From the NCBI GenBank assembly GCA_964442455.1, contig CAYTZB010000005.1:5152-69151 (forward strand): a DNA stretch of 64,000 nt, in the 5' to 3' direction. Of the stretch, positions 6,835-51,204 are shown one piece after another. Numbering within the stretch: position 1 is the stretch's first letter; each line of letters begins with the position of its first letter. Origin of the DNA: an uncultured Gammaproteobacteria bacterium. Its GTDB lineage: Bacteria; Patescibacteriota; Microgenomatia; UBA8517; JACQJR01. The notes beneath the pieces were generated by a model. The model searched no databases and was not told the origin of the DNA. It saw nothing but the letters and a program-made list of their open reading frames with translations. The translations under genes were made by a program, and so were the position numbers.

Positions 6835-7748
6835 AACTTAGCATACGTTATAAATCTGCTCCATCCTTGATAAATTGAAAAGACAACACCAGGTACTCCA
6901 TCCAAAAATCCTAGTTTTAAAACTAACCGATCAAAAATTTCGCCAATGACCGGACGGAAAAATCTCCACCATGTCATTTTCGGATGACCACTCTCAAGTA
7001 AAAGCCTTGCTTCAATTTCCGACCAGTTGTTCGTTTTCTTAACCATATCTGATAAATTATCTTCTTTTAAATGAATGAAAGGATTCTTAAGATATCCAAT
7101 TTCCCCGTTGATTTTTGGTTGTTCGTGTAGTTCACCTTCCCATTTAATTAGTGCGTCCTTTCTCATAAGTCGTATAACATAATCCGGCCACCAGCCTCCA
7201 TGGTGCAATTCTTTCCCAAAAACAAAATTTCGTCTTGGAATAGCATAAGCTACTATACTAGAGTCGGCGGGTGACACGGGTGGAAGGCCTGCCTGCGCAG
7301 GCAGGGGTCCCGATCCCACTTCGCTCTTCGAGCTTCGAGGGACAAGCACGCTGGTACTGGCGGGCCTGCCAGCCGAAGCTTTAGCGTAGGCGGGAGGGAG
7401 AACCCGGGGCAGGACCCGCCGACCACCCGGGGTAGGACCCCGAGCAATCATTTCCATAATTTCCTCTCTTAACTCTGGAGAAACTCGCTCGTCAGGGTCT
7501 ATATAAAAAAGCCATTCACCTTTTGCTACCTCTTTTCCTTGATTCCTCCAGGTATCAAAACTCCCCGGTTTTTGTCTTATCACACGAGCTTTATACTTCT
7601 TCCCAATCTCAAGTGTTTTATCGGTTGAGCCGCCATCCAACAGAATAATTTCTCCTATCCCTTCCACCAGATGGCGGACAGATTCTAAACATTCAGGTAA
7701 TTTTTCAGCAGCATTTTTTGTAAGAACGACAATTGATATCTGTATCAT
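6810..7748 (-). CDS. GT2-family glycosyltransferase carrying an in-frame GC-rich palindromic insertion
   Basis: N-terminus 'ISIVVLTKNAAEKLPECLESV...ILLDGGSTDKT' and 'DPDE' are the GT2 DxD region. A roughly 57-aa Pro/Ser/Arg/Gly-rich segment (RGPTPGGRRV...PVSPADSS) interrupts the conserved core. Confidence 0.75.
   Translation of the reverse strand: MIQISIVVLTKNAAEKLPECLESVRHLVEGIGEIILLDGGSTDKTLEIGKKYKARVIRQKPGSFDTWRNQGKEVAKGEWLFYIDPDERVSPELREEIMEMIARGPTPGGRRVLPRVLPPAYAKASAGRPASTSVLVPRSSKSEVGSGPLPAQAGLPPVSPADSSIVAYAIPRRNFVFGKELHHGGWWPDYVIRLMRKDALIKWEGELHEQPKINGEIGYLKNPFIHLKEDNLSDMVKKTNNWSEIEARLLLESGHPKMTWWRFFRPVIGEIFDRLVLKLGFLDGVPGVVFSIYQGWSRFITYAKLWEMQRRL
7263..7433. repeat. GC-rich palindromic insertion element (171 bp, divisible by 3) with 10-bp perfect terminal inverted repeats GTCGGCGGGT...ACCCGCCGAC, inserted in-frame in the GT2 gene
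   Basis: The segment is sharply GC-rich within an AT-rich gene. It contains nested palindromes (CCTGCCTGCGCAGGCAGG; CACGGGTGG/CCACCCGG) and a direct repeat CTTCGAG x2. Its termini match the element at 15888-16002. Confidence 0.55.
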
Positions 7749-8698
7749 GGATTAAAACTTCCTTTCCCAAAGTTACCAAAATAATAATCTAACACTCCTC
7801 GCCGCTGCCATGACCGCCCATTGAAAAGAAGACGCGCCGACTCACGAAGTAGCGCAAATCGAGAACGAAGTGGTGCAAAGCGGCTCCCAAAGAGAAGTCG
7901 GTTGCGAGTGATGTAATAATCATTCAACTCACTCCCAATCGCAGAACTTTGCGCAACTTTGTGCCAGAGATAAGCAGATGGAGCATATAAAGTTTTAAAA
8001 CCTGTCATTTTTGCCCTTTGACAAAAATCAGCGTCTTCCCAATATAAAAAATAAGACGGGTCAAGTAGCCCAATTTTTTTAAACACTTCTTTCTTGACGA
8101 ACATACACGCACCGGTCGCAAAATCAGTCTCTGTGGTACTATCGTATTGGCCTTTATCCACTTCATCCACCCCTCGATGGCTTGCCAAAACATTATCCCA
8201 GTTAATCGCTCCCCCCGCATACCATATAACCTTTCCCAACTCTCCCTTCTTATACCTATCTTTGTGGAACTCAAAACCTTTGTAAAAATAAATTTTAGGG
8301 GAAATTATGCCAGCATGCGGGTTATTCTCTGCTGTTTTAATCAATTGAACTATTAAATTCTTATCTGTAATCGTATCGTTATTAAGAAGTACCACGTAAT
8401 CGGCATAGTCTTTTAATGCCGCTTTTATGCCCATATTATTCCCTTCCGAAAACCCTAGGTTATTTTTGTTTTCAATTAATTGAAATTTCGTGGAAAATTT
8501 TGCAAGTGTACGTAAATTTTCAACCGACCCATCAGTTGAACCATTATCAACAACAATAGTTTTGAGTTCTGAGTTTTGCCGTGCGTCGCCAAAGGCTATG
8601 CCGGCGGCGCGAGTTCTGAGTTTTGCAATGCTATCCAAGCATTGCAACGTATCTTCTTTCCCATTCCAATTAAGAATAACAATTGATACTTTTTTCAT
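7745..8698 (-). CDS. GT2-family glycosyltransferase
   Basis: 317 aa. 'VSIVILNWNGKEDTLQCLDSI...IVVDNGSTDGS' is the GT2 motif. It contains a short GC-rich insert (RTRAAGIAFGDARQNSE). Confidence 0.75.
   Translation of the reverse strand: MKKVSIVILNWNGKEDTLQCLDSIAKLRTRAAGIAFGDARQNSELKTIVVDNGSTDGSVENLRTLAKFSTKFQLIENKNNLGFSEGNNMGIKAALKDYADYVVLLNNDTITDKNLIVQLIKTAENNPHAGIISPKIYFYKGFEFHKDRYKKGELGKVIWYAGGAINWDNVLASHRGVDEVDKGQYDSTTETDFATGACMFVKKEVFKKIGLLDPSYFLYWEDADFCQRAKMTGFKTLYAPSAYLWHKVAQSSAIGSELNDYYITRNRLLFGSRFAPLRSRFALLRESARLLFNGRSWQRRGVLDYYFGNFGKGSFNP
8564..8626. repeat. 31-bp GC-rich insert flanked by a perfect 16-bp direct repeat (GAGTTCTGAGTTTTGC) inside the GT2 CDS
   Basis: 8564-8579 and 8611-8626 are identical. 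Between them lies cgtgcgtcgccaaaggctatgccggcggcgc, with imperfect palindromic ends GCGTCGCC/GGCGGCGC. It sits between the conserved CLDSI and IVVDNGS motifs. Confidence 0.5.
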
Positions 8699-8797
8699 TT
8701 TGAGCCCTGCGAAAAAACAAGCTCCGCTTATTTTGAGCCCTGCGAAAAAACAAGCTCCGCTTATTTTGAGCCCTGCGAAAAAACAAGCTCCGCTTAT
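8699..8797. repeat. Perfect 33-bp tandem repeat x3 (TTTGAGCCCTGCGAAAAAACAAGCTCCGCTTAT), followed by a hairpin CCGCTTA-tcgggt-TAAGCGG
   Basis: Three identical copies at 8699-8731, 8732-8764 and 8765-8797. The array starts immediately 5' of the ATG of GT2 gene 7745..8698 and contains the stop codon of 8794..9687. Confidence 0.9.
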
Positions 8798-9687
8798 CGG
8801 GTTAAGCGGCGCAGGAGTTTATGAAATACAGTGGGTTTTCTCATACGTTTGGCTACTAACCAATGGTCCAGTTCTCCCTCTGCATCGGTAAGTGTATTAG
8901 TAACCTCCGAAGCATCAAGAGTGATAACCTTAAACTTTTCTGCTTCCCATACCTTCAAATACAGGATAAATTCGGAAAATGCCTGAAGGAGCGACAGCGC
9001 TAACCCATGAACACCATCCTTATATCCCTCTCCAGCTAAAAACCTACTCACAAACTCATTAGTTGGTTTCGTGAGTAAATCTCGCCAATTAAATTTGTAC
9101 CCATCTCTAATTTTTGTTTCTGCTTGAATTGAACTATAGCGGTTCATTCTTTCAAGATATTGAGAAATCGATTGGTAGTTATAGTGAACAATCGCAAATC
9201 TTTCCTGCGCCGGTAAATCCCATCCAACTCCATGGGTCTCGGGTACTGAATGGATAATCTCGCTCCATAAAACACTGCCCTTCTTAAAAAATCGAATCTG
9301 GTAATCTGGCCACCAGCGTGAGTGTCTCGTCCATTGTCCAAAAATAATATTTTTACGAGGAAGGCGATAAAAATCGGCATTGGGCTTTGTTGCTAATTTT
9401 TTTAATTGCTTTGCAAGACTGTCCGGAATCTCCTCATCAGCATCAAGAACTAAAATCCAAGGACCCAAAGCTTTATTAATCGCAAAGTTGCGGGCAGGCT
9501 CAACATAACCAGTTGGCTTGTGCGAATATACTTTTGCCCCCGCCTTTTTAGCTATTTCTTGAGTGGAATCCGAAGATTCCATATCCACCACCACAATCTC
9601 AGGAGCTAAATCTTTTACAGAGGCAAGAGCTCGAGGCAAATTCTTTTCCTCGTTCCAAGTATTTATGACAACCGAAATCTTCGCCAC
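8794..9687 (-). CDS. GT2-family glycosyltransferase
   Basis: 297 aa. 'ISVVINTWNEEKNLPRALASV...VVVDMESSDST...LDADEE' is the GT2 motif set. The last codons and stop lie inside the 33-bp repeat array. Confidence 0.75.
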   Translation of the reverse strand: MAKISVVINTWNEEKNLPRALASVKDLAPEIVVVDMESSDSTQEIAKKAGAKVYSHKPTGYVEPARNFAINKALGPWILVLDADEEIPDSLAKQLKKLATKPNADFYRLPRKNIIFGQWTRHSRWWPDYQIRFFKKGSVLWSEIIHSVPETHGVGWDLPAQERFAIVHYNYQSISQYLERMNRYSSIQAETKIRDGYKFNWRDLLTKPTNEFVSRFLAGEGYKDGVHGLALSLLQAFSEFILYLKVWEAEKFKVITLDASEVTNTLTDAEGELDHWLVAKRMRKPTVFHKLLRRLTR

Positions 9688-11566: not shown

Positions 11567-13066
11567 TTAACTCTTTCTGAAGGTGGCATATACATTTTTT
11601 AAATCTCGCAAAACTTGCTCGCCGACAATAACATAAAGTAGTAGAAGATAAGAAGCTATTCCTGACAAAACTAGAATAATTATTCCGAATAAATTCAGTG
11701 GGGTAATATTACCAACCAGGAATACAAAAATACCCATTCCTAAACTTGCAAGAACGGGTTTGCCTACACTTTCCAGAAAATTAAATCTCACAAATCGTGT
11801 AGCCCACACTATTGCAAAAATAGAGCTTGTTCCAACAATTGCAAATCCCAAAGCAGCTCCGTTAATGTGGTAAAGAGCGGCCAGCGCTGGTACGAGGAGC
11901 CATGTAAGCGTAGTCCACATAATCATAAGTCTAAAGGTAATTGTAATTTTGCCAATTGCCGCTAATACATTTGTAAGAGGAGTTGTTACGGCTGCCCACG
12001 CACTATTTATAGTAATAAGACCAAGTGCGAGCAATGCCGGCTGCCACTTCTCATAGCGAGGAATTACCTCTGTTAGTGGCCCCGCAAGAAGTACTAACCC
12101 GATAAGTGAGGGGAATACGAGAGCGCTTACGAAAAAAATAGAACGCGAAACCGCATGGGACAACTCCTTTTTATCATCCTGAAGACGCGAAAATGCAGGG
12201 AAAGTGACTTTTATCACCTGGTCCATAAAAAAACGTAGCGGGGCCTGTGCCCACTTTTGCGCCCAGCCCAAAAGTCCGACTCCCGCCGGCCCAAGAATCC
12301 CACCCAAAACCATAGTCATACCATCATCTTTTGCAACGGCCAAAAACGTATTTGCTTGATAGGGTAGACCAAAGCGCAGTAGTCTCGCAAGGGATTCCTT
12401 TGCGAACGCGAAACCGGGCATCCAAGGCTGGAGCAAGTAAATTATAATAAGACCTGCAAAACCTCGCACGAGTACTGCAATAGTAAAGCTTGTTATTCCT
12501 GCTCCTTGCCACGCAAAAAAAACCGCAACTCCATAAAACAAAAATGTTTCAATTATTTGAGGAATTATTAATTTTTCAAACTTTAACTGTCGTTCAAGAA
12601 GGACAGAAGGGATAGTTTTAAGAGAAGACAAAACAAGCGTTGCCGCAAGCGCCCATAAAAGATAGACAGATTGCTGACTGAACCCATACAACTTTTGAAA
12701 AAGTGGTGTTGCGGCAACGATAATAATCACCAAAAGTACTGTCAAGCCCTGTTGAATAGTAAATGTGGTCCGCAATTCCTCCTCCTTTGCCGCCTCTTTC
12801 TTTTGAATAAGCGCAGCGGCCAAGCCAATATCAGAAAAATATGCAAAAAAATTAATAACCGCTGATACTAAAAAGAATACCCCGTATTGTGTTGGAGTAA
12901 GGAAAATTGTGAGAAGAAACGTGGCAACAAGCGCAACTGTTTGAAGAGCGGCCGTCCTACCAGTGAGTACCACGACTCCCCTCACCGCCCGCTTCTTTAC
13001 CGTCTCAAGAGAAATTTCCTCTGTTGGACTTAAATGCTCACCAGCTTCAATTCCTACCACACTCAA
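11567..13066 (-). CDS. wzx: Wzx-like MOP-superfamily oligosaccharide flippase
   Basis: 499 aa, about 12 TM. The N-terminus '...RGVVVLTGRTAALQTVALVATFLLTIFLTPTQYGVFFLVSAVINFF...AALIQK' is typical of polysaccharide biosynthesis/Wzx proteins. Confidence 0.7.
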   Translation of the reverse strand: MSVVGIEAGEHLSPTEEISLETVKKRAVRGVVVLTGRTAALQTVALVATFLLTIFLTPTQYGVFFLVSAVINFFAYFSDIGLAAALIQKKEAAKEEELRTTFTIQQGLTVLLVIIIVAATPLFQKLYGFSQQSVYLLWALAATLVLSSLKTIPSVLLERQLKFEKLIIPQIIETFLFYGVAVFFAWQGAGITSFTIAVLVRGFAGLIIIYLLQPWMPGFAFAKESLARLLRFGLPYQANTFLAVAKDDGMTMVLGGILGPAGVGLLGWAQKWAQAPLRFFMDQVIKVTFPAFSRLQDDKKELSHAVSRSIFFVSALVFPSLIGLVLLAGPLTEVIPRYEKWQPALLALGLITINSAWAAVTTPLTNVLAAIGKITITFRLMIMWTTLTWLLVPALAALYHINGAALGFAIVGTSSIFAIVWATRFVRFNFLESVGKPVLASLGMGIFVFLVGNITPLNLFGIIILVLSGIASYLLLLYVIVGEQVLRDLKNVYATFRKS

Positions 13067-13069
13067 ATT

Positions 13070-13200
13070 GTAGCATTATTTCGAGCGTCAGCGAAAAACA
13101 AGCTCTGCTTATTTCGAGCAAAGCGAGAAACAAGGTTCTGTGTAAAGCACAGGTTCTTATTTCGAGCTTACGAGAAACAAGGTTCTACGCGAAGCGTAGG
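13070..13200. repeat. Degenerate array of three copies of the same repeat family seen at 8699-8797 (TATTTCGAGC-N-GCGAAAAACAAGCTCTGCTTAT...)
   Basis: Copy 1 'tatttcgagcgtcagcgaaaaacaagctctgcttat' aligns to 'ttttgagccctgcgaaaaaacaagctccgcttat'. Copies 2-3 are more diverged and carry hairpins CTGTG-taaag-CACAG and CTACGC-gaa-GCGTAG. The array lies immediately 5' of the flippase ATG. Confidence 0.7.
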
Positions 13201-13203
13201 TTA

Positions 13204-14685
13204 TCATTGTAGTTTAGCAACCAACGAATAAACTTTATCTTGAGGAAAATCTTTCGGCACACCGCCAAGGTCTTCATAAAACACTCGCAGTGTTTTGTCT
13301 TTGTACAAAATCTGCAGCGCATCTTCACCATTTAACATAAAATGGGCTTGCTTTGAGCTACCTCCCCAATCACCTGAAATTTTTGGATAATTCGGATCAT
13401 TAGCGAAGTAGAGAGCAGCGCCCTTTGGAAGTTCGGGATACTTTACTCTTATATAATTTACTAATTTTTGTGCCGCTCGGCCACGGTTTGCAGCGGGATA
13501 TGTTTTATCAGCAAGTGCGATAGACGCTACAGAAAGCAGGAATAACGACAAAAGAAATGCACCAGCCAAAACATTAGTCATAGCCCCCCACCTTTGCCTT
13601 AACCAGCTATAAGCACTAAATACTACTAACCCCACCGCCCCCCAAAAAGCTGGAAGTGCCGGGGTTAAATAATATGTTTGCTTATGAAGTGGTAAAAGAA
13701 GAACAGGTGAAAGCGCAATAGGAAACCACAGAAGGAGAAACCAAAACCTCCTATCCCGCAATATTCCACTTCGGACGGCAAACACTGCGCCCATAATAAG
13801 AATAGTCACAGCCAGCCCAGAAAAAAAGAAAATTCCCGAAGCATAATCTCCCCAAAATTTCATAAGATTAGGATTAAGTTTGAACCCCGGTTCCACGAAA
13901 TCAATAAACATCTCAGGAATACCAAGGGCCCACGCAGAGTACCAAGACAGCGAGTTAAGAATTGCTTTGGGGGATAATGTCGGCTGATACTGCTGCTCGC
14001 CTGATGAAAAACCAATAAGAAAAAAGTCTAAAAATAAGAAAACAGACAAAACAACAAAAAACGGTATGGTAATCTTTACACCTTTAAGCGCTTTTTGAAC
14101 AAACAACAATCCCACCAAAAGTAATGGTGTTACAACTGCAAGCTCATGTGAACCAAGCGCTAAAATGAACGCAAAAAATGACAATAAATACCATTTCCCA
14201 CCTTGCTCGAGCCATTTCCAAAATGAAAACAATGTCAGAAGCACAAAACTTGTTGCTCCCAACGACTGCACTCCTCCAGCAAGATAGTACAAACTTCCCA
14301 CATTTGCAGCAGTTATTCCAAAGAAAAACGAGATGAAGAGTGCCAACTCCCTTTTTTGAAACAATTTCTGCATCAACAAGTACACAAGGCCTACATTTAA
14401 AAAATGGATGCCAATTGAAAGAATCCTAAACGGAAGATGGTTTAAACCAAATATAAAATAGAAAATATTAAATAATGCTTCTCTGGTGACTGGCCGATAA
14501 AACGCAATTCCCCTCTCGCTAAATGGGTGAAATCCGAATAGATTAAGAAAACCAGCAAGCGTCCCATCGGTTTGGCTTACTTTAAAATGGAAAAAGTCAT
14601 CATGAGAGAAATAAATAGAAGAGACAGAATGATAAAGTACAAAAATCGTTCCTAAAATGCTAAAGAAAATCCAATACAATCGCAC
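13204..14685 (-). CDS. Polytopic membrane protein, putative GT-C glycosyltransferase
   Basis: 493 aa. A first-loop acidic motif 'FSHDDFFHF' follows TM1. Highly hydrophobic. Located in the glycosylation operon. Confidence 0.5.
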   Translation of the reverse strand: MRLYWIFFSILGTIFVLYHSVSSIYFSHDDFFHFKVSQTDGTLAGFLNLFGFHPFSERGIAFYRPVTREALFNIFYFIFGLNHLPFRILSIGIHFLNVGLVYLLMQKLFQKRELALFISFFFGITAANVGSLYYLAGGVQSLGATSFVLLTLFSFWKWLEQGGKWYLLSFFAFILALGSHELAVVTPLLLVGLLFVQKALKGVKITIPFFVVLSVFLFLDFFLIGFSSGEQQYQPTLSPKAILNSLSWYSAWALGIPEMFIDFVEPGFKLNPNLMKFWGDYASGIFFFSGLAVTILIMGAVFAVRSGILRDRRFWFLLLWFPIALSPVLLLPLHKQTYYLTPALPAFWGAVGLVVFSAYSWLRQRWGAMTNVLAGAFLLSLFLLSVASIALADKTYPAANRGRAAQKLVNYIRVKYPELPKGAALYFANDPNYPKISGDWGGSSKQAHFMLNGEDALQILYKDKTLRVFYEDLGGVPKDFPQDKVYSLVAKLQ

Positions 14686-19362: not shown

Positions 19363-20127
19363 TTAATACTTGCCCTTTAAATCATTCCACCTAATCCTTA
19401 GCATATCGCGAGTTGCATCAAGGGAATCTTTGACTAATTGTACTCGCTCTGTTCCTACATGATGCCATTCAACTGGAACTGAGGCAATTTTAAATCCCTT
19501 CTTACGAGCTATGAAAAGTGTCTCAACATCAAATCCTGCATGAACTGCTGCTCCTACCGTCTTCATTCTCTCCCACCTCTCTTTCATCTTGGGGAAGAGT
19601 GTCTCTCGTGACCGTCGATTAAAAGCTTTAAAACCACATTGCGTGTCTTTAAACGGTAATCCTAAAATAATGTTTCGTAGAATAGCAAATCCCAGTGCTA
19701 CAAGTTTTCTTATTAATGGAGCCCCCGCTCTTCCATGCCGCGAACCAATAACAATGTCATATCCCCGCCGGTCGGCGGGCAGGCCTCCTTCAAAATATGG
19801 GAAAAACTTTTCAACTTCAGAAAGTGGCGTTGCTTGATCCATATCGGTAAAAAGCGCTATCTCACCTTTAGCAGCCAATAAACCTGTCATTACCGCTAAT
19901 GCTTTCCCGCCGTGCTTATTTTCAATAAGCCCCCAATTCTTTTTTCCGTGAATCCACATTTTTACTAATTCCCTTGTATTGTCTGTTGATCCGTCATCAA
20001 CAACCAAAACTTCATACGAATAATCTACATTCTTTAAGTAATTTACAACCTCACTCAAAACCTCGTTTTTAAGATTTTGCTCCTCGTTATATGCCGGAAT
20101 AATAATTGATAAATATATTTTGGCCAT
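19363..20127 (-). CDS. GT2-family glycosyltransferase (DPM1/polyprenol-phosphate glycosyltransferase-like)
   Basis: 254 aa. 'LSIIIPAYNEEQNL...VLVVDDGSTDNT...TDMDQ' is the GT2 motif set. It contains a small GC-rich palindrome at 19764-19789. Confidence 0.75.
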   Translation of the reverse strand: MAKIYLSIIIPAYNEEQNLKNEVLSEVVNYLKNVDYSYEVLVVDDGSTDNTRELVKMWIHGKKNWGLIENKHGGKALAVMTGLLAAKGEIALFTDMDQATPLSEVEKFFPYFEGGLPADRRGYDIVIGSRHGRAGAPLIRKLVALGFAILRNIILGLPFKDTQCGFKAFNRRSRETLFPKMKERWERMKTVGAAVHAGFDVETLFIARKKGFKIASVPVEWHHVGTERVQLVKDSLDATRDMLRIRWNDLKGKY

Positions 20128-20167
20128 TTGGTTACTGGGTTACTGGGTTACTGGGTTACTGGGTAAC
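20128..20167. repeat. 8-bp tandem repeat TGGGTTAC x5 (3 perfect and 2 variant copies)
   Basis: Sequence is ttggttac tgggttac tgggttac tgggttac tgggtaac. It encodes the last 8 codons and the stop of 20140..21744, and lies 1-40 nt upstream of the ATG of GT2 19363..20127. Confidence 0.85.
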
Positions 20168-21744
20168 CTATGTCTCCTCTCTACCGTTATTCCTCCGAAC
20201 TTCACCTCTTTTTCAACTTTACCAATATTTTCCTGCCTCGCCAACCATGCGTCTAGCCTCTCGGGATGAGGTGGATCAACCTCATAGAGGGTATAGAGAA
20301 GTGGCACGTGCTCCTCTTTCGGCACTATCCCATATATTGTTGTTCCCCGCCACAAAAACAAATAATCGTAGGCATATGGGATTACCGGCGGGACATAAGA
20401 GTCAACATTAAAAGGAGTATTACCAGTATCTTCGTAAACCCAGTTAACTGCTTGTTTTTGGTTACCAAAAGCAATAGTATTTTGGCCGTCTACCCCTGAA
20501 GTTATATAACTTTGGATAACTGGAACATTAGTCTGCAAAAAAAGGTATAAAAAAATACCTAAAATAATTTTGCCAAACAAGGTATTGACAATAGTCGTTA
20601 ACAGAACAGAAAACAACAAAATAAAAATTAAATAGTATCCTGTAAAGTAATAGTCATAAATATTACCGTAATTACCCTGGAAGAAAAGCATTCCGGCAAG
20701 TGGGGAGAGGAAAATAATAAGTAATGTAACAAATTTCTGATTTGCAAAAAAAATCTTTCTGTTTATAATCAAAACTCCAAGTGAAATAATTCCAAATATA
20801 AATCCGTAATTTTTATAACTCATAAAAAGCTTTGAATTAAAAACATCAAAGTAAAAAAACAACCTTTGTCTGGCTACTTCCCAAAATGAACCCTTAAAAT
20901 TACCATCTCCAATTAAAAATTTAGCAATTCCAGATCTTAATATTCCATCATGGCGCAGGTCAAAAATTATTTGCGGTAAGAATGGAATAACCAAAGCAAT
21001 AACAAATAAAATCCAAATTTTCAAATCTGGCAAATTTTTCTTTTGCCCGCTTCGCGAGGCGAGCCAGATTGCAAAAACTAAAACAGCAGGAAAATAAAAA
21101 ACTTCAGCTGCTGAACCAAATTGCATTGCAAATCCTAGCATAAGTCCAGTAATAACCCATCCCCACCGTTTGCCTTTTATAATTAAAAATAAAGAAAGTA
21201 CAAGCAACATGCTAATAAGAAGCATTGGTGTTGGATTTGATAGCCAACGTGAGGCATAAACCAACTGAAAAGAAAATGTAGAAATTATAGCAGCAACAAG
21301 CCCTGTTAATCTTCCCGATACCATTACTCCGAGGATATAAATAAGTAAACTTGCAACAACGGTGGTAAAAGACAAGAATACTGATGGCCAAACTGGATTT
21401 CCGTTCCCTAATAAATAAAAAGGGGCAATCAACCAATAGTACCAAGGGCCGCGAAAAATTCCTTCTATTCCAGTTGTCGGCCCGATAAGGAAAAATTTAC
21501 CCTTATGCCACAAATCCCAAATGACAAGCGCATCTCTTCCTTGGTCATAATAAAACCCAAGGAGATTATCAATTCTCCAAACTCTCACCAAAAAAGCACC
21601 TAGAAGAATTATTGACAAAATTAGATATATTCTCGAGTGAGTCAATATCTCAGCTCTCAAACCGCTCAGCCATCGTCTCGTTCTTGTTACACTGTTATCC
21701 TGAAAGGACAAGCTCTGCTTACGTAGGGGTATAAGATTAGCCAT
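20140..21744 (-). CDS. GT-C/ArnT-like membrane glycosyltransferase (paralog of the 1..983 gene)
   Basis: 534 aa. 'YYDQGRDALVIWDLWHKGKFFLIGPTTGIEGIFRGPWYYWLIAPFY' matches the 1..983 product. The N-terminal 35 aa is uncertain: a degenerate copy of the intergenic repeat (aaaggacaagctctgcttacg) overlaps 21700-21725. Confidence 0.55.
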   Translation of the reverse strand: MANLIPLRKQSLSFQDNSVTRTRRWLSGLRAEILTHSRIYLILSIILLGAFLVRVWRIDNLLGFYYDQGRDALVIWDLWHKGKFFLIGPTTGIEGIFRGPWYYWLIAPFYLLGNGNPVWPSVFLSFTTVVASLLIYILGVMVSGRLTGLVAAIISTFSFQLVYASRWLSNPTPMLLISMLLVLSLFLIIKGKRWGWVITGLMLGFAMQFGSAAEVFYFPAVLVFAIWLASRSGQKKNLPDLKIWILFVIALVIPFLPQIIFDLRHDGILRSGIAKFLIGDGNFKGSFWEVARQRLFFYFDVFNSKLFMSYKNYGFIFGIISLGVLIINRKIFFANQKFVTLLIIFLSPLAGMLFFQGNYGNIYDYYFTGYYLIFILLFSVLLTTIVNTLFGKIILGIFLYLFLQTNVPVIQSYITSGVDGQNTIAFGNQKQAVNWVYEDTGNTPFNVDSYVPPVIPYAYDYLFLWRGTTIYGIVPKEEHVPLLYTLYEVDPPHPERLDAWLARQENIGKVEKEVKFGGITVERRHRLPSNPVTQ

Positions 21745-31395: not shown

Positions 31396-31423
31396 AAATT
31401 GAAAATTGAAAATTGAAAATTGA
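31396..31423. repeat. Heptanucleotide tandem repeat AAATTGA x4 in the 5'UTR/RBS region of 31148..31393
   Basis: Four perfect copies, immediately adjacent to the start codon and downstream of the stop of the CAP-domain gene. Confidence 0.85.
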
Positions 31424-31431
31424 AAATTTAA

Positions 31432-32427
31432 TCACAATATACTTCCTCTTTGAGTAATAAATAACATCATTCCTATACTTACCAAAAACCCGAAGTGTGC
31501 TAGATGCCTGGCTCCAATGCGTACCACTCGTGTCTCCAAAAGCGCCACTGCGTCAAAAACAAGAACAAGAAGGAGCATTCCCACTATAGTCATCCCCACA
31601 TTACGTTGGAGAGAGAATGGCGAAATAAGGGTGATGCCCGCTGCTGCTGCCAGCGGTCCCCCTGAAGCTGGAGTAGGAAGAGCAGCAACGATAGCAGCAG
31701 GGGTTGGCTGTGCCTGGGAAGAGGGTGTAACCGTTGGCGAGATAGATGCCTGCACGGTCGAAGGGACTGCCGTTGGCGCCACAGAGGGTGTCGGTTGAGG
31801 TGTTGATACAACTGGAGTGGGTTCTGTGGAGTTTTGAGCTACCTGTATGGGTGCACTACTTCCAAGCCTTGTGCCTAAAAGCTGGACAACAATGGTAGTA
31901 GGCTTTCCGCTCAGCTCGCCTTGCACCACCGCAATACCAATATCCTGATATTTTCCTGAAAGCATGTTATCTCTGTGTGTCGGGGACGCTATCCACGCAT
32001 TGACCACCTGCTCGGGCGAATCAAAGTCCCGCGCCAAGTTCTCTCCCGCATACCGATACTCGTAACCCGAACTAAGAAAAAATGTCCATGGCGTGGTCCC
32101 GTCAGGCGCCACGTGTGCCCAGTATCCTTTTGCAAGCATATCTTGCCCTTTTGCTGCCGCGGCAGATGAGAGCGTCGGGTCGAGCCGAAGAGAAGAGAAA
32201 CCTGATTGTGCCCGTTTTTGATTGGTGAGCTCGACTAACGCTTGCACAGGAAGTGAAGTAGCGGTTAATCCTAGAACTCTCGCAACATGGGTAGGCACAC
32301 GCACGACATATAACATAAGAAGGACACCCGCTATAACAAAAAGAGAAGAAGAATGTAAAATCTTAGCCTTAAAATTATTCGCGTGAGAGGGAAGCAAAAA
32401 ATGGGCAAGGATGGCAGCAGCGCTCAT
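31432..32427 (-). CDS. CAP/SCP/PR-1-like domain protein with an N-terminal TM anchor, a Pro/Thr/Ser-rich linker and C-terminal TM segments
   Basis: 331 aa. 'LVELTNQKRAQSGFSSLRLDPTLSSAAAAKGQDMLAKGYWAHV...GENLARDFDSPEQVVNAWIASPTHRDNMLSGKYQDIGIAV' is a CAP domain (YkwD-like). The GC-rich part of the gene (31590-31800) encodes the PTPS linker. Confidence 0.6.
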   Translation of the reverse strand: MSAAAILAHFLLPSHANNFKAKILHSSSLFVIAGVLLMLYVVRVPTHVARVLGLTATSLPVQALVELTNQKRAQSGFSSLRLDPTLSSAAAAKGQDMLAKGYWAHVAPDGTTPWTFFLSSGYEYRYAGENLARDFDSPEQVVNAWIASPTHRDNMLSGKYQDIGIAVVQGELSGKPTTIVVQLLGTRLGSSAPIQVAQNSTEPTPVVSTPQPTPSVAPTAVPSTVQASISPTVTPSSQAQPTPAAIVAALPTPASGGPLAAAAGITLISPFSLQRNVGMTIVGMLLLVLVFDAVALLETRVVRIGARHLAHFGFLVSIGMMLFITQRGSIL

Positions 32428-34816: not shown

Positions 34817-37800
34817 TTATTCGCGGGGACGACGGGGCCAAAAAACCAAAGCACCAATAACTACTATAAGAATTACACCGAGGGCGAGTAAACGATTACC
34901 AGAAAGCCGTTCAAGTAATCCGCCCTGTTCTTCCCCAACAGGAGTTGGTGCCGCCGAAGGTGTCGGAGTTGCTTCTCCTCCCAAAATCTCACCCTCGCTT
35001 GGTTCTTCTTTCGGTAAAATCTTTACCTCTCCAACACCACCAGCAACTGCCCCAGTAGTCGTTGCGGCCGACGCCAGCACTGCTCCGGCGGTAACCTGTG
35101 CCTCTTGATCAGCAACTATGCCTGAGCCATTTCCTGCATGGTCAACTGCCCGCAGAGCGTAAAAGTATGTCTTTCCACTCTCAAGGCCAAAATTATCCCA
35201 TGACATTTGCTGGTCAGGTGCTCCTCCTACCTCTCCCACTTTAGTTCCCCCATCAGCTGTAAACTCCGGTTTATCCGAGCGGTAAATAAACACTCTGCTG
35301 AAATCAGAATCGCCCGGGTTTTTCCAGAAAAGACGGTAGCTTGAGTCAGAAGGTCTTTCCTTCCTGTACTCTTGAACTCCTGATGGTCCTGAGTGGTCAA
35401 AATTTGTATTGGTCTCGTCAGCAGAAGTATCCGCTCCGCCAGTCACCTCAACTCGAAAGATATATTTCCCTTGACCGTCATAGAAATCAGCGCCTGTTAC
35501 CAAAACTTTATTGGTTGCGCCAGTTGTTGAGGAGTTAACCAAACTTCTAAATGTTCCACCATCCTTCTTGACGAAGAAGTTGGCTGTTACAGAATCGCCC
35601 TCTATGTCAAGCGCAGTATAGGAGATGTAGAAAGTATCTGTATTGGTGTAGGAAGGCAAGTCGAGTATATCAACGGTCACTGCCGCTTTGGCTGGCGAAA
35701 CCTGTGCAACAAATATGAAGAGCAACAGTACAACTACGCTACCCAAAAACTTTTTCCAAAGACCACTCTTTTTTGCTCTTCCTTTTCTTCTTGGTGCAAG
35801 TGCCAGGCCGAGGCGTCTCAAACCAAATCCTGCTCCCAAGAGGAAGCCAACATATACAAGCCAGACAGTATTAGCACCGGCTGCCGGAAGTTCTGTTACT
35901 GCAGCAAGCACTTGTGGCTGGTGAATATCGTATGAGATGAAGACACCCTTTCCTATCGGGACCGATGAACGGACAATATTACTTTGGAATGTGTCACTTC
36001 CCGTACCCTGGGCAAAGGCAAGGTTTGTGTGGGTACCGGCATGAATATCACTTGCAATAACCGCCTTATAGGTAACAGTCAAGGATGCAGTGCCAGCAAT
36101 ATCTCCAAGATTATTCCAGGTTAAGATGTTGCCTGAGACTGAGTCGGGGTCAGCAGGCGTTCCTGTCAAAGGAATAAATGTAAATCCGCTAGGCAAGACA
36201 TCAACTAATCTGACATCATGCAGTGTTCCACCACCGGTATTGGTAATGACCAATGTATATGTGACCACATCCGAACCAGAAGCACTGGAGGTATGGTCAT
36301 TTGTCTTGGTAAGCGAAATGCCAGGAAGTAATTTTTGGTTGGTAAAGGTACAAGTGACACCATCTGTGGTCAAGTTCACAACAATCTCATTGGTAGTACC
36401 GCTTGTCTCGTCCGAACAACTCCAGGAAACTAAGCCAAATTCTTCTTGTAGGTCTTCTGAAATTGTATAGCTTTCGGTTGGTAGGGTGCGGGTTTGGCCT
36501 GTCGCAATATTCTGCTCAACACCTGCTATATCCCATGTCCAGTTAGTTGCGCCAATTATGTCTTCTTCATCATTCAAATCGCCGTCTCCATTTGCATCCA
36601 CGTTCTTGAGAACAGTCAAATCTCCTGTATCCCGCGCATTACAGAGAGTAATCTCGGCACTCTGGTCTTCTTCTACTGTTATGCTTGCTGGGAGTTCTGC
36701 ATTTTCTGGATCCTCACAAGTTCCTTCTCCCTCAAACCAACCAACGAAGTGGTAACCAAGAACATTATTTTCTGAAACATCGTATGTTCCTGTATCAAGG
36801 GGACCAGCACTTTCTCCCATTTCTCTTTCCGGTGTTTCCTCATCAATTCCCCAACGGAAGCCCAGTTCATTTGCTACATCATTATCGCCCTCAAAGCTAC
36901 CGTCACCGTTGGTATCTACTTGTTTATTGACTACGATTTCTCCAATATCACGGGTGTTTGTAATCGTGCAGGTTACATCCTCACCCTCATCAAGGATAAC
37001 TGTCCCACCAAGCACTTCTGGGCATTTCTCGTCTCCGGTAATTGATGTAAAGCTGTAACCTTCTAGCCCGTCCTCGTCAATTGCGATTGGAGTATTCGCA
37101 TCAACCTCGGTTGCAAAACCAGATAATACTCCTATGTCATCAACCAGGAGACCGAAATCGTCTGGGTCTGCATTCCCGCCAATAACTTCTTTAATAAGAG
37201 TAATTGTTGGAATAATATCATCGTTGGTTATGGTACAAGAGATATTTTCTCCTTCATCCAAGGTAACTGTTCCACCAAGAGTATTTGGACACTTAGCATC
37301 CCCTGTAATAGATACAAAGTTGTAGCCGTCAAGAACAGTCTCATTGATTGTGTGAGGTTGATTGGCAGAAACTTGGGTTGTGGAACCCGATAAGACAACG
37401 TTCCCATCTATTGTTGGGTCAAAATCGTTAGGCTGCGCATTACCACCGTTATTATTTACAACAACCTTAGTAAGTGTAATGGTTGGACCAACATCGTTGT
37501 TTGTGATAGTACACGTAATACTTTCTCCTTCATCAAGAGTTACAGTTCCGCCAAGAATTTCTGGGCATTTTGCATCTCCTGAAATCGAAACGAAGGAATA
37601 ACCTGTTAGTCCAACTTCGTTAATTACTATTGGGGTATTAGCGGAAACCGTGGTTGTAGCTCCGGACAAGACCGCTGAACCACCAACTGAAATTCCAAAA
37701 TCGTCTGAACCTGCATTACCTCCATTATCATTGATTACTTCCTTAATTAAGGTTATGGATGGAGCTATATCATCGTTGGTTATAGTACAAGTGACGCTTT

Positions 37801-49631: not shown

Positions 49632-49637
49632 AGTTCT

Positions 49638-49663
49638 GTTTTAATGTTTCGAAACATTAAAAC
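49638..49663. promoter_or_regulatory. Perfect 26-bp palindrome GTTTTAATGTTTC|GAAACATTAAAAC, 7 nt upstream of the tsaE start (copy 1 of 3)
   Basis: Read directly. The core TGTTTCGAAACA is shared with the copies at 50564-50589 and 51087-51110. Confidence 0.6.
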
Positions 49664-49686
49664 AATCATCAGCCCAATGTTTCTTC

Positions 49687-50583
49687 TCACTCTTTATCGG
49701 TATCAGTTAAATTTATAGTTTTTCTCTCTCTCATAAACACAATTGTCGTCCCAACAAGAAAACTTAGTCCTGTAATAATAAAGATTACAGGCAAAACAGG
49801 CAATTCTTTGAACCAACCGCCTATTTTTGTTTCCTCTCCTAGTGTCGGTGAAGGAGAAGAAGTTTGTCCCTCTTGCAAACCAAGTACAATTGGCTCTGAT
49901 GTTGGAGAAGGAGAATTTTTTGGGCTGGCCGTTGGCTTTGGCGTAGGAGTCTTTGTAGGAGTTGGAGTTTTGGTTGGGGTGGGAGTAGGTGTCTTTGTGG
50001 GCGTCGGTGCAAGAGTCTGCGAGGGGGTTGGGGTTGGAGAAGGAGTGGGAGAAGGTGTGGGTGTTTGAGGTATAGAGTTAGTCGATCCTTTAGTTGCAGT
50101 TTGTAAGATTGAGAATATCCCTGTACGATCAGGACTCCTCCCTATCGATATACCGTCACCAGGATTCGAAGTATACTGGTACTGATCAACAATCGCCCCA
50201 GAAGAATCAAAAAGCACCACATGATCCCATTCTCCGGCGCTGTTGGCACTGTTGTTTAAAAAGGAATCCATCTCTATAAAGGGGTATGTCGTGCTCGTAG
50301 TAACAAGATCAGCCAAGACTTTCTTGGTGCTACTCCCAGTATCGGTTGTAAAATCCGTATCGTCATCAAGCCAATAGGACTTTAAGAATTCAGCACTACT
50401 TGATGCATTATAAAACTCAACCCACTCAGGATTCCCATCAACCAAAAACTCATTTATCACCACCTGTGCAAAAGAATTCGTTGGGAAAACCAACCAAAGA
50501 ATAAAAAATAAACCTAAGGAGAAAACTGCTTTCGTTAAACCAAAGATAACTATATTCAATTTTGTTTTAATGTTTCGAAACAT
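49687..50583 (-). CDS. Lamin-tail-domain (LTD) cell-surface protein with a Pro/Thr-rich linker and a C-terminal TM anchor
   Basis: After the signal peptide, '[22 protein letters not shown]...YWLDDD' is an LTD. Then comes '(PTPS/PTKT)n', about 70 aa of low complexity, then '[24 protein letters not shown]'. Confidence 0.6.
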
Positions 50584-50589
50584 CGAAGC
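50564..50589. promoter_or_regulatory. Palindromic operator copy 2 (GTTTTAATGTTTCGAAACATCGAAGC), overlapping the ATG of the LTD gene
   Basis: The left half-site and the 12-bp core are perfect. The right arm diverges (CATCGAAGC vs CATTAAAAC). Confidence 0.55.
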
Positions 50590-50592
50590 AAT

Positions 50593-51060: not shown

Positions 51061-51086
51061 CTTAGTAATATGACTAGAGAGTGCAT

Positions 51087-51110
51087 GTTTTAATGTTTCG
51101 AAACATCGAA
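51087..51110. promoter_or_regulatory. Palindromic operator copy 3 (GTTTTAATGTTTCGAAACATCGAA), about 27 nt upstream of the YerC-like gene start
   Basis: Same motif as the other two copies. Its position is consistent with autoregulation. Confidence 0.55.
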
Positions 51111-51204
51111 ACCTAAGAAGTCGATGTAAATGTAATTCAATTTAATCGGTCAATGGTGGATTTATAAAAATGGATTAAGGATAACTTCCGAACCGAGTAA
51201 GCCC

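What the first reader, a model, noticed from the sequence alone, without database searches (positions are those of the whole stretch)
8699..8797. Perfect 33-bp x3 tandem repeat bridging the stop of one GT2 gene and the start of the next
Three identical 33-mers (TTTGAGCCCTGCGAAAAAACAAGCTCCGCTTAT) fill the whole intergenic space. The stop codon of 8794..9687 lies inside the third copy. The ATG of 7745..8698 abuts the first copy. A terminal hairpin CCGCTTA-tcgggt-TAAGCGG follows. Perfect identity implies very recent expansion or concerted evolution. Copy-number change would alter the 5'UTR length of the downstream GT2 gene. The same repeat family recurs, diverged, at 13070-13200, and as a solo degenerate copy at about 21700-21725. 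In every case it sits immediately 5' of a glycosylation gene start. This pattern suggests either a cis-regulatory module (binding site or attenuator) or a REP-like dispersed repeat.
Basis: seen in the sequence. Interest (0 to 1): 0.6.

Follow-up and report, generated by a model that had tools for sequence, protein, structure and literature searches.

The report
Small hairpin repeat spread through CPR bacteria
The perfect 33-base triple repeat between two sugar-transferase genes is a recent insertion, amplified on the spot, of a small two-hairpin repeat element that I found scattered between many kinds of genes across the ultra-small Patescibacteria (CPR) bacteria; it is not a switch specific to glycosylation genes.

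Summary
Window 8697-8797 holds 3.06 perfect copies of a 33-nt unit. All genes here are on the minus strand. Read on that strand, the unit is ATAAGCGGAGCTTGTTTTTTCGCAGGGCTCAAA. The upstream GT2 stop codon is the unit's TAA, and the downstream GT2 ATG follows the last unit directly.

The regulatory interpretation is only partly right. The unit belongs to a dispersed family with consensus ATAAGCRGAGCTTGTTTYTCGC-(0-5 nt)-GCTCRAAAT. I found 139 non-redundant arrays, nearly all in Patescibacteria MAGs and groundwater or sediment metagenomes, plus a few viral contigs. Arrays hold 1-4 head-to-tail copies. They sit next to EF-G, EF-Tu, ribosomal proteins, enolase, GyrB, ClpP, tRNAs and others; only 3 of 49 downstream proteins are GT2.

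Covariation supports two small hairpins per unit.

Three relatives (89%, 89% and 76% nt identity) have an empty junction (CCCGATAAAATG or an ATGA overlap), and two of them have no units anywhere in the syntenic cluster. Both window arrays are therefore lineage-specific insertions at a TAA. Copy number differs between assemblies with identical flanks elsewhere.

Best reading: a REP/MITE-like element, co-transcribed, with hairpin-level effects on the mRNA. At some loci, such as the rpsB leader, it is conserved, so an adopted function cannot be excluded. I found no published description.

The parts
8699..8797 (-). Three identical 33-nt units (8797-8765, 8764-8732, 8731-8699), read on the minus strand as ATAAGCGGAGCTTGTTTTTTCGCAGGGCTCAAA. 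The array fills the GT2|GT2 junction.
   Evidence: covariance-model hits.
8794..8796 (-). Stop codon TAA of the upstream GT2 (ORF 8794-9687). It is also the TAA at the start of the first unit.
   Evidence: The same TAA is the stop at the empty junction of relatives.
8696..8698 (-). ATG of the downstream GT2 (ORF 7745-8698). Its AT completes the ...CTCAAAAT end of the last unit. No -10 box precedes it and no canonical Shine-Dalgarno; only AGGG in the hairpin-2 loop, 8-11 nt upstream.
8790..8809 (-). 7-bp hairpin CCGCTTA-ACCCGA-TAAGCGG, formed between the 3' coding end of the upstream GT2 and the first unit, followed by AGCTTGTTTTTT (terminator-like by a simple scan).
   Evidence: Relatives have CCGCTTG and no unit, so they lack this hairpin.
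13080..13204 (-). Second, heterogeneous array of three units: 13204-13161 and 13160-13113 carry an extra inner hairpin in the hairpin-1 loop; 13112-13080 is canonical. It lies between the stop (TGA 13206-13204) of ORF 13204-14685 and the flippase promoter.
   Evidence: The empty junction in the relative L161 is CCAATAATGTTACAAT.
13058..13075 (-). Extended -10 promoter TGCTACAAT (13075-13067) and probable leaderless GTG start (13060-13058) of the Wzx-type flippase, directly downstream of the second array. Conserved in relatives that lack the array.
   Evidence: sequence reading; the promoter is inferred.
21697..21727 (-). Solo partial unit (hairpin 1 plus a CCTTTCAGG mini-hairpin), just after the TAATG junction at 21744 and inside the annotated 5' end of PMT_2 ORF 20140-21744.
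   Evidence: E = 0.06. A similar variant, TAAGCAGAGCTTGGCCTTTCAGG, occurs in L052.

Best explanation
The array is a lineage-specific insertion of a small, non-coding, two-hairpin interspersed repeat, amplified locally to three copies.

The unit is 26-33 nt. Hairpin 1 (H1) is AUAAGC-RGA-GCUUGU. Hairpin 2 (H2) is UUUYUCRC-loop-GYUCRAAA. The family is spread through Patescibacteria (CPR) genomes and some of their putative phages.

The element lands at A/T-rich gene boundaries, directly 3' of an ATAA or TAA. Its own ends recreate a stop (TAA...) and an A-rich lead-in to a start (...AAAAT|G). This lets it sit between tightly packed genes without destroying them. Its 3' end again reads ...ATAA, so further copies can be added head to tail, by re-insertion or by slippage and unequal recombination. 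That would give arrays of variable copy number.

In this window it split two GT2 genes that are translationally coupled in relatives (1-nt gap or ATGA overlap). The result is a 95-nt structured spacer that is co-transcribed with the operon.

Its likely effect is REP-like and acts on the RNA. The hairpins would uncouple translation of the two cistrons and could cause partial termination or protect mRNA ends. Translation of the downstream GT2 would then depend on the exposed AGGG in the last H2 loop and the A-rich CUCAAAAUG context.

Shown: family membership, structure covariation, empty orthologous sites, and copy-number polymorphism at other loci. Inferred: the mobility mechanism and every effect on expression.
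For: Family and distribution:
- The 19-mer AAATAAGCRGAGCTTGTTT hits 31 loci in species-representative genomes. Most are titled Saccharibacteria, Portnoybacteria, Paceibacterota, Collierbacteria, Blackburnbacteria, Microgenomates or Patescibacteria, and several hold tandem copies.
- There are 139 non-redundant arrays. Among all 177 arrays found before de-duplication, 148 have one copy, 18 have two, 7 have three and 4 have four; periods are 24-33 nt.

Structure:
- H1+H2 exceeds all 500 shuffles and all slid controls.
- Compensatory pairs: 23-36 CG 53 / UA 37; 26-33 GC 78 / AU 16; 27-32 CG 84 / UA 7.
- The thermodynamically preferred alternative helix shows no covariation.

Insertion:
- Relatives L163 and L161 (89% nt identity in the upstream GT2) have CCCGATAAAATG at the junction. 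L162 (76%) has an ATGA overlap.
- The flippase junction is also empty in L161 and L163.
- The covariance model finds no unit in 42 kb of syntenic cluster from L161 and L162, although the L161 genome carries units on other contigs (L004, L015, L027, L029).
- In the window, model hits fall only at the two arrays and the solo copy.

Copy-number change: L029 has 2 units and L076 has 1, with 547/547 identical flanks. L100 has 2 and L106 has 1, with 460/467.

No gene specificity: Pfam hits on 49 downstream proteins are scattered over 73 families.

Both orientations occur: 36 arrays are flanked by sense genes on both sides and 11 by antisense genes on both sides.

The family is present in viral contigs.

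An independent Logan contig with the identical upstream GT2 breaks inside the first unit.
Against: - No transposase or other mobilising enzyme was identified. There are no terminal inverted repeats. The apparent target duplication is ambiguous: 2 nt at one site and 4 nt at the other, both in A/T runs.
- Head-to-tail arrays are not typical of MITEs or of REP clusters.
- At some loci the unit is retained and conserved while its flanks diverge. It is 33/33 identical at the 5' end of the rpsB leader in genomes whose S2 proteins are 71% identical. It sits at the same junction before a DsbD-like gene in four distinct metagenome or MAG contigs, where the H2 arms differ but still pair.
- The unit starts at the predicted transcription start in 11 of 122 arrays, against about 0.6 expected per position. 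About three quarters of neighbouring genes are in the sense orientation.
- Together these points suggest function rather than pure selfishness.
- Near-identity of the 19-21-nt core across CPR classes needs a conserved partner that I could not name.
- The folding strand is ambiguous. The invariant U.G in H1 fits only the sense strand, while mismatches in H2 fit the antisense strand better.
Confidence: 0.55

Rival explanations
1. A dedicated cis-acting RNA module of CPR bacteria. The conserved H1/H2 hairpins would be bound by a conserved factor (ribosome, RNase or a global RNA-binding regulator). They would set mRNA 5' ends, stabilise transcripts, or support Shine-Dalgarno-independent initiation in genomes dominated by leaderless genes. 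Arrays would tune the dose.
For: - There is a sense-orientation bias of about 3:1.
- The unit starts 7-8 nt after a -10 hexamer in 11 of 122 arrays.
- It abuts the ATG, with no room for a separate SD, at fusA, rplW, rplJ, GT2 and other genes.
- Downstream genes include EF-Tu, EF-G, L14, enolase, GyrB and ClpP by Pfam, and L10, L23, L24 and S2 as read from their N-terminal sequences.
- The unit is conserved 33/33 at the rpsB leader across 71%-identical S2 proteins.
- Covariation supports the structure.
- The window genome is mostly leaderless with few SDs.
- The H2 loop is often purine-rich (AGGAG, GAGGA, AGGGG, AGGG) 7-8 nt before the ATG.
Against: - The unit is absent from the orthologous junctions of three relatives, whose genes are presumably expressed without it.
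- Copy number varies freely.
- At least 11 arrays are antisense to both neighbours.
- It occurs next to tRNA genes, so translation cannot be its only role.
- No partner has been identified.
Confidence: 0.25
2. An array of weak intrinsic terminators or attenuators. Each unit is an A-tract, a short stem and a U-tract. Three in a row would set the ratio of upstream to downstream GT2 transcripts.
For: - The simple scan calls terminator-like sites at 8809-8790, 13199-13185, 13152-13138 and 13124-13102, all followed by (A)RCTTGTTTY.
- H1 is flanked by AAAA on one side and GUUUUU on the other.
- In antisense contexts the unit reads as a hairpin followed by ATTTTTT, just after a gene end.
- In L016 and in window array 2, units lie between a stop codon and the next promoter.
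Against: - The H1 stem has only 2 G-C pairs.
- Single-unit folds are no more stable than shuffles for the window unit (z = +0.26).
- Units sit at the very 5' end of rpsB, fusA and nrd transcripts and directly before ATGs of highly expressed genes. A terminator there would be harmful.
- Terminators do not need a conserved loop and stem sequence across classes.
Confidence: 0.12
3. An assembly artefact, or a guide- or antitoxin-type small-RNA array (TIGR, CRISPR-like, or ToxI-like).
For: - Perfect short tandem repeats are hard to assemble, and the Logan contig breaks inside the repeat.
- TIGR arrays occur in CPR and have about 36-nt units (PMC12045711).
Against: - The gene-to-unit junction is seen in a second assembly, and the same architecture recurs in many independent assemblies.
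- The units have no variable spacers. No Tas/Nop, Cas or ToxN-like gene is adjacent; the neighbours are GT2 genes.
- There is no Rfam match.
Confidence: 0.04

Closest known systems
REP / BIME elements (repetitive extragenic palindromes of proteobacteria, mobilised by RAYT Y1 transposases)
   Same: - About 30-40-nt imperfect palindromes confined to intergenic DNA.
- Often placed just after stop codons inside operons, and co-transcribed.
- Clustered, with presence/absence and copy number varying between strains.
- Hairpin maintained by compensatory change.
- Known to affect mRNA stability, termination and translation of the upstream gene (my own knowledge of the REP literature).
   Different: - No GTAG-type 5' tetranucleotide.
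- Arrays are strictly head to tail rather than alternating in orientation.
- Each unit has two hairpins.
- The same 19-21-nt core is shared across several CPR classes, whereas REPs are species-specific.
- No RAYT was found.
- The unit's ends supply a stop codon and abut the start codon.
MITEs such as the Neisseria Correia element, pneumococcal RUP/BOX and Rickettsia palindromic elements
   Same: Small non-autonomous insertions at A/T-rich sites next to genes. They are co-transcribed, can change expression of neighbours, and are polymorphic between strains.
   Different: Much shorter (26-33 nt against about 100-150). There are no terminal inverted repeats and no clear TA duplication. Tandem head-to-tail arrays are unusual for MITEs.
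IS200/IS605-type single-strand transposition logic
   Same: The insertion lies 3' of a short specific sequence (here ATAA/TAA) that pairs with bases at the foot of a subterminal hairpin. There are no inverted repeats and no regular duplication. The element is orientation-biased.
   Different: This is an analogy only. No TnpA, TnpB or RAYT was detected in the held loci, and the element is far smaller than any IS end pair.
ToxI (type III antitoxin) and TIGR arrays
   Same: Perfect or near-perfect head-to-tail arrays of about 33-36-nt hairpin-forming units lying directly upstream of a gene. TIGR arrays are reported in CPR.
   Different: The neighbouring genes are ordinary glycosyltransferases or housekeeping genes, not ToxN or Tas. 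The units carry no variable spacers. The family is dispersed as single copies at many loci.
Polysaccharide-operon leader elements (JUMPstart/ops, EAR RNA)
   Different: There is no ops sequence in the window and no Rfam match. The family is not specific to polysaccharide loci and is absent from the orthologous clusters.

Membership tests
REP/BIME (RAYT-associated) | Short (20-40 nt) imperfect palindrome, extragenic, in many copies | tested here: met
   The unit is 26-33 nt with two covariation-supported hairpins. All hits are intergenic or at gene ends. Held loci of 8-14 kb carry up to four separate arrays. A genome-wide count was not possible.
REP/BIME (RAYT-associated) | Conserved 5' GTAG-like tetranucleotide next to the hairpin | tested here: not met
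   The bases before and at the hairpin foot are (A)TAA in 100% of 109 aligned units. No GTAG is present.
REP/BIME (RAYT-associated) | A RAYT (Y1/HUH) transposase gene in the genome, typically flanked by REPs | not testable with these tools
   Only 2-21-kb pieces around matches are held. tblastn with an IS608 TnpA sequence recalled from memory found nothing, which is not informative.
REP/BIME (RAYT-associated) | Clusters with alternating orientation (BIME/REPIN doublets) | tested here: not met
   All 44 adjacent unit pairs are head to tail, with periods of 24-33 nt and four of 64-80 nt.
MITE | Terminal inverted repeats and a fixed-length target-site duplication | tested here: not met
   The unit ends TAAGC... 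and ...CTCRAAAT are not inverted repeats. Comparing filled and empty sites gives 2 nt (AA) at 8.7 kb and 4 nt (ATAA) at 13.1 kb, both within A/T runs.
Intrinsic (Rho-independent) terminator | G+C-rich stem directly followed by a U-tract | tested here: inconclusive
   A simple scan calls four sites in the two arrays. The conserved H1 stem has only 2 G-C pairs, and the single-unit fold is no better than shuffles.
TIGR array (Tas-associated) | Alternating edge and loop repeats separating two variable ~9-nt spacers per unit, with an adjacent Nop-domain Tas gene | tested here: not met
   The units are identical, with no variable spacers. The neighbours are GT2 genes. The definition is taken from PMC12045711.
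Type III toxin-antitoxin (ToxI-like) | A tandem RNA repeat array immediately upstream of an endoribonuclease toxin gene | tested here: not met
   The downstream gene is a GT2 with 4912 homologues at E <= 1e-30 (the best hits are GT2-annotated Microgenomates/Woesebacteria proteins), syntenic in relatives that lack the array.
JUMPstart/ops | The ops element GGCGGTAG in the leader of a polysaccharide operon | tested here: not met
   There are 0 matches in the window.
Any Rfam family | A match at the gathering score | tested here: not met
   There are no matches in the 64-kb window at gathering thresholds. Only chance-level hits (E > 1) appear in 8600-8900.

The most novel reading that the evidence does not exclude
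The unit is a phylum-wide, mobile 'plug-in' RNA module of Patescibacteria that the cell actually uses. It would be a conserved two-hairpin leader that defines or protects mRNA 5' ends, or is cleaved to regenerate leaderless AUG-starting mRNAs. It would permit initiation without a canonical Shine-Dalgarno in genomes that are mostly leaderless. It would be recognised by a conserved, still unknown factor. That would make it a new class of translation or mRNA-processing element whose copy number can tune expression.
Probability: 0.15. Interest if true: 0.85.

Novelty: new variant of a known kind. Interest (0 to 1): 0.6.

Why it matters
CPR/Patescibacteria genomes are about 1 Mb, tightly packed, and thought to be poor in repeats and regulators.

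This is a 33-nt structured element with an almost invariant core across several CPR classes. It appears and disappears at gene junctions between close relatives. It varies in copy number. It also sits at the 5' ends of rpsB, fusA, tuf and ribosomal-protein genes. Such an element is useful in three ways:
- as a marker of genome dynamics;
- as a possible handle on how these organisms organise transcription and translation, which seems to rely on leaderless starts, coupling and few Shine-Dalgarno sites;
- as a practical annotation feature, because it explains contig breaks and spurious ORF extensions.

For this window specifically, the repeat should not be read as a glycosylation-specific or phase-variation switch without read-level and expression data.

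Tried and rejected
- Sigma-70 or sigma-54 promoter inside the unit. No -10/-35-like hexamers occur at a suitable distance from the abutting ATG (sequence reading; one search lists none in the arrays).
- CsrA-type GGA-loop sites. The loop is AGA in most units and GGA in a minority.
- Coding potential. The periods of 24, 27, 30, 31, 32 and 33 nt are not all multiples of three, and the unit starts with a stop codon.
- Alternative helix GAGCTTG/CAAGCTC. It is preferred by the minimum-free-energy fold but shows no covariation: 133/500 and 77/500 shuffles reach the observed values.
- Extended H1 pairing using the R of the preceding unit. There is no association between that base and Y, whereas Y pairs with the downstream R.
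- TIGR arrays, ToxI, CRISPR, attC, ops and Rfam families. See the membership tests.
- Literature search for the sequence itself. Only an unrelated PRRSV hit was found. Searches on CPR together with repeats, RNA motifs or leaderless genes returned nothing relevant. A 2026 preprint on intergenic features does not mention this element.
- Exact look-up of the downstream GT2 protein failed twice, so the source contig could not be re-fetched.
- tblastn for a Y1 transposase in the held loci found nothing. The query was recalled from memory, so this is weak evidence.
- Complementarity of variant units (ACCTTGTT) to the 16S 1492R region was noticed but not tested. I treat it as coincidence.
- Several single 19-mer hits in non-CPR genomes (Undibacterium, Chitinophagaceae, Clostridia and Lachnospiraceae coding regions) are probably chance matches. 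My own estimate from the pattern and collection size is about 9 or more expected by chance.
- A 'Bacillota' MAG (FK_Sedi_B_Bin.101) carries 64-68-nt tandem variants with the same H1. Its taxonomy was not checked.

Full report
**1. Observation**

Tandem Repeats Finder reports 8697-8797, period 33, 3.1 copies, 100% identity, score 202. The 33-mer occurs three times without mismatch, and none is expected in shuffled sequence.

All genes in this part of the window are on the minus strand. Read in the direction of transcription, the unit is ATAAGCGGAGCTTGTTTTTTCGCAGGGCTCAAA.
- The upstream ORF 8794-9687 and the downstream ORF 7745-8698 are both GT2 glycosyltransferases.
- The upstream stop TAA (8796-8794) is the TAA at the start of the first unit.
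- The downstream ATG (8698-8696) follows the last unit with no gap.
- The hairpin CCGCTTA-N6-TAAGCGG (8809-8790) is real. It forms between the last codons of the upstream gene and the first unit.

A second, heterogeneous array of three units lies at 13204-13080. The units are 44, 48 and 33 nt, and the first two carry an extra inner hairpin. A partial solo copy lies at 21697-21727.

**2. It belongs to a large dispersed family**

- A scan of one genome per species for AAATAAGCRGAGCTTGTTT returned 31 loci. Most are from MAGs titled Saccharibacteria, Portnoybacteria, Paceibacterota, Collierbacteria, Blackburnbacteria, Microgenomates or 'Patescibacteria group'.
- Some are from TPA MAGs labelled 'uncultured Gammaproteobacteria'. 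One of these (CAYIKF01) is a close relative of the window organism, so that label is probably wrong.
The record names mark some as Hainich groundwater assemblies; I did not look up the source of the others.
- Three viral contigs carry long-form units.
- After removing redundancy there are 139 arrays. Across all 177 arrays found, 148 have one copy, 18 have two, 7 have three and 4 have four. All are head to tail, with periods of 24, 27 and 30-33 nt.
- The consensus is ATAAGCAGAGCTTGTTTYTCGC-(0-5 nt)-GCTCRAAAT.
- The best protein relatives of the window GT2 are from Microgenomates and Woesebacteria.

**3. Structure**

On an alignment of 109 distinct units, a two-hairpin model fits well. H1 is AUAAGC-RGA-GCUUGU. 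H2 is UUUYUCRC-loop-GYUCRAAA.
- 95% of cells are paired.
- Three H2 pairs and two H1 pairs show changes on both sides: 23-36 CG 53 / UA 37; 26-33 GC 78 / AU 16; 27-32 CG 84 / UA 7.
- The model exceeds all 500 shuffles on the covariation score, on the percentage of cells paired and on the number of cells changed on both sides, and it exceeds every slid control.
- The Y...R association holds within a unit (53 + 37 canonical pairs against 18 C/A) but not with the preceding unit.
- H1 variants found next to the seeds also compensate: AAGG/CCTT, AAAC/GTTT and AAGA/TCTT.
- Insertions are tolerated in the H1 loop (window units at 13.1-13.2 kb, L103, L138) and in the H2 loop (L075, L102).
- The helix preferred by energy minimisation (GAGCUUG/CAAGCUC) shows no covariation.
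- The folding strand is unclear. The invariant U.G in H1 fits only the sense strand, while H2 mismatches fit the antisense strand better.
- There is no Rfam match.

**4. Context across the family**

- In 27 of 139 arrays the unit's TAA is the stop codon of a sense ORF of at least 80 codons.
- In about 10 arrays the terminal ...AAAT supplies the AT of the next ATG. In about 25 of 60 non-redundant downstream genes the start lies within 7 nt.
- In 11 of 122 arrays a good -10 hexamer ends 7-8 nt before TAAGC, against about 0.6 expected per position. In these cases the unit begins at the predicted transcription start.
- Several of these look like leaderless genes into which units were inserted between the start site and the ATG. 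In L044 fusA, removing the units would leave TAAAAT-N7-ATG.
- Downstream genes are very diverse: EF-G, EF-Tu, L10, L14, L23, L24, S2, NusG, enolase, GyrB, ClpP, MraZ, LysRS, TsaD, ParB, ABC transporters, DsbD-like proteins and tRNAs. Only 3 of 49 are GT2.
- Orientation is biased but not absolute. 36 arrays have sense genes on both sides, 11 have antisense genes on both sides, 8 are divergent and 3 are convergent.
- The window genome itself is mostly leaderless. A -10 box lies 6-10 nt before many starts, Shine-Dalgarno sites are few, and operon-internal genes overlap by 4 nt.

**5. Both window arrays are recent insertions**

Syntenic clusters were recovered from three relatives:
- L161 (CAYIKF010000001), 89% nt identity in the upstream GT2;
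- L163 (Logan SRR22388223), 89%;
- L162 (JACQJR010000001), 76%.

At the GT2|GT2 junction, L161 and L163 read CCCGATAAAATGAAAAAA, a 1-nt gap. L162 has an ATGA overlap.

At the junction before the flippase, L161 reads CCAATAATGTTACAAT: the stop, then directly the extended -10 and the leaderless GTG. L163 has an unrelated small gene there and no units.

The covariance model built from the family finds nothing significant in 42 kb of these clusters. The L161 genome nevertheless carries units on four other stretches (L004, L015, L027, L029). In the window, the model hits only the two arrays and the solo copy.

Comparing filled and empty sites places the insertion directly 3' of ATAA, at the stop codon. 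The duplication is ambiguous: 2 nt at one site and 4 nt at the other.

The unit's own 3' end again reads ...ATAA. This offers a simple route to head-to-tail arrays and is an inference. Heterogeneous arrays (13.1 kb, L029, L006) could arise from successive insertions. Perfect arrays (8.7 kb, L144, L016) could arise from local duplication.

**6. Copy-number change**

- L029 has two units and L076 has one, with 547/547 identical flanking bases.
- L100 has two and L106 has one, with 460/467 identical.
- Assembly collapse cannot be excluded, but the units involved differ in their linkers.
- For the window array itself, only one piece of independent evidence exists. A Logan contig with the identical upstream GT2 carries the first unit and then breaks.

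**7. Evidence that the element is not merely junk**

- At the 5' end of the rpsB leader the unit is 33/33 identical in two genomes whose S2 proteins are 71% identical. The promoter and the rest of the leader have diverged.
- Before a DsbD-like gene it occupies the same junction in four distinct metagenome or MAG contigs (L005, L030, L049, L086), where the H2 arms differ but still pair.
- The H2 loop of units that abut an ATG is often purine-rich (AGGAG, GAGGA, AGGGG; AGGG in the window), 7-8 nt from the start. It may serve as an exposed Shine-Dalgarno site. This is an inference.

**8. Interpretation**

The best-supported statement, at roughly 0.9 for this part, has three elements:
- The 33-nt x3 array is a lineage-specific insertion.
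- It is a local amplification of a dispersed, structured, REP/MITE-like element of Patescibacteria.
- It is not a module specific to glycosylation genes.

What it does is inferred. It is co-transcribed, because there is no promoter between the upstream GT2 and the downstream ATG. It replaces tight stop-start coupling with a 95-nt spacer of hairpins. It should therefore change the relative expression of the two GT2 genes, as REP elements do in enterobacteria.

I give 0.55 to the combined statement 'mobile or expanding REP-like element with generic hairpin effects'. I give 0.25 to a dedicated cis-acting RNA function, 0.12 to a terminator or attenuator array, and about 0.04 to an artefact or a guide/antitoxin array.

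**9. Comparison with known systems and novelty**

- It works most like REP/BIME elements, but it fails several of their defining features. It has no GTAG and no alternating orientation, and no RAYT was identified.
- It is not a MITE in the strict sense, because it has no terminal inverted repeats.
- It is not a TIGR, CRISPR or ToxI array, an attC site, an ops/JUMPstart element or any Rfam family.
- I found no description of the sequence in the searchable literature.
- I therefore rate it a new variant of a known kind. Four features are unusual: near-identity of the core across CPR classes, two covarying hairpins in 33 nt, ends that supply a stop codon and abut the start codon, and placement at predicted transcription starts of highly expressed genes.

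Noticed in passing
window 20130-20164: A perfect 8-nt tandem repeat (GGTTACTG x4.4; ACCCAGTA on the coding strand). It fills the junction between the stop of PMT_2 ORF 20140-21744 and the ATG of GT2 ORF 19363-20127. It is a second junction-filling perfect repeat in the same cluster and a better candidate for slippage-type variation than the 33-mer.
   Followed up: partly
window 31396-31428: A perfect 7-nt tandem repeat (AAATTGA x4.7) between the stop of ORF 31432-32427 and a downstream ATG. The same heptamer (TTGAAAA/GAAAATT runs) flanks the 33-nt units in many other CPR loci (L041, L064, L075, L077, L096, L102, L110, L134, L152). It may be a second repeat family that travels with the first.
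   Followed up: no
window 49634-49666, 50560-50592, 51083-51115: A 24-bp near-perfect palindrome, TTTTAATGTTTCGAAACATTAAAA, occurs three times in successive intergenic regions of a minus-strand gene row. In one case it overlaps the annotated ATG. It looks like an operator for a dimeric regulator and is unrelated to the finding.
   Followed up: no
window, all gene starts (for example 25732, 28990, 18164, 54427, 60082): Most genes have a TATAAT-like box 6-10 nt before the start codon and no Shine-Dalgarno site. Operon-internal genes overlap by 4 nt. The organism appears to rely largely on leaderless mRNAs and translational coupling.
   Followed up: partly
window 34817-41974: A 2385-aa ORF with internal repeats of about 270-290 nt (families D1-D4). 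It is probably a large repetitive surface protein.
   Followed up: no
L055 5700-6060; also L054, L101, L145, L155: In one class of loci the unit lies between two or three tandem copies of a promoter-like block (TATAATTTnAAGAGATTA...), each preceded by a small hairpin. This suggests duplication of whole promoter-plus-unit segments.
   Followed up: no
L013, L017, L021, L031 (MAG titled Bacillota bacterium FK_Sedi_B_Bin.101) and L010: Tandem units of 64-68 nt begin with the same H1 (ATAAGCAGAGCTTGTTTTGCGG...). A perfect outer helix, UUUUGCG...CGCAAAA, encloses extra hairpins. Either the family extends outside CPR or the MAG label is wrong.
   Followed up: no
L161 / GCA_964363945.1 (CAYIKF01): This MAG is titled 'uncultured Gammaproteobacteria', yet it shares a syntenic glycosylation cluster at 89% nt identity with the window. 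Its best protein relatives are Microgenomates and Woesebacteria. The taxonomic label is probably wrong.
   Followed up: partly
L162 547-5838: In the 76% relative, the region upstream of the flippase carries a PD-(D/E)XK nuclease, an N6/N4 methyltransferase and a SIR2-like gene. This is a defence-island-like insertion at the same boundary where the window has the second repeat array.
   Followed up: no
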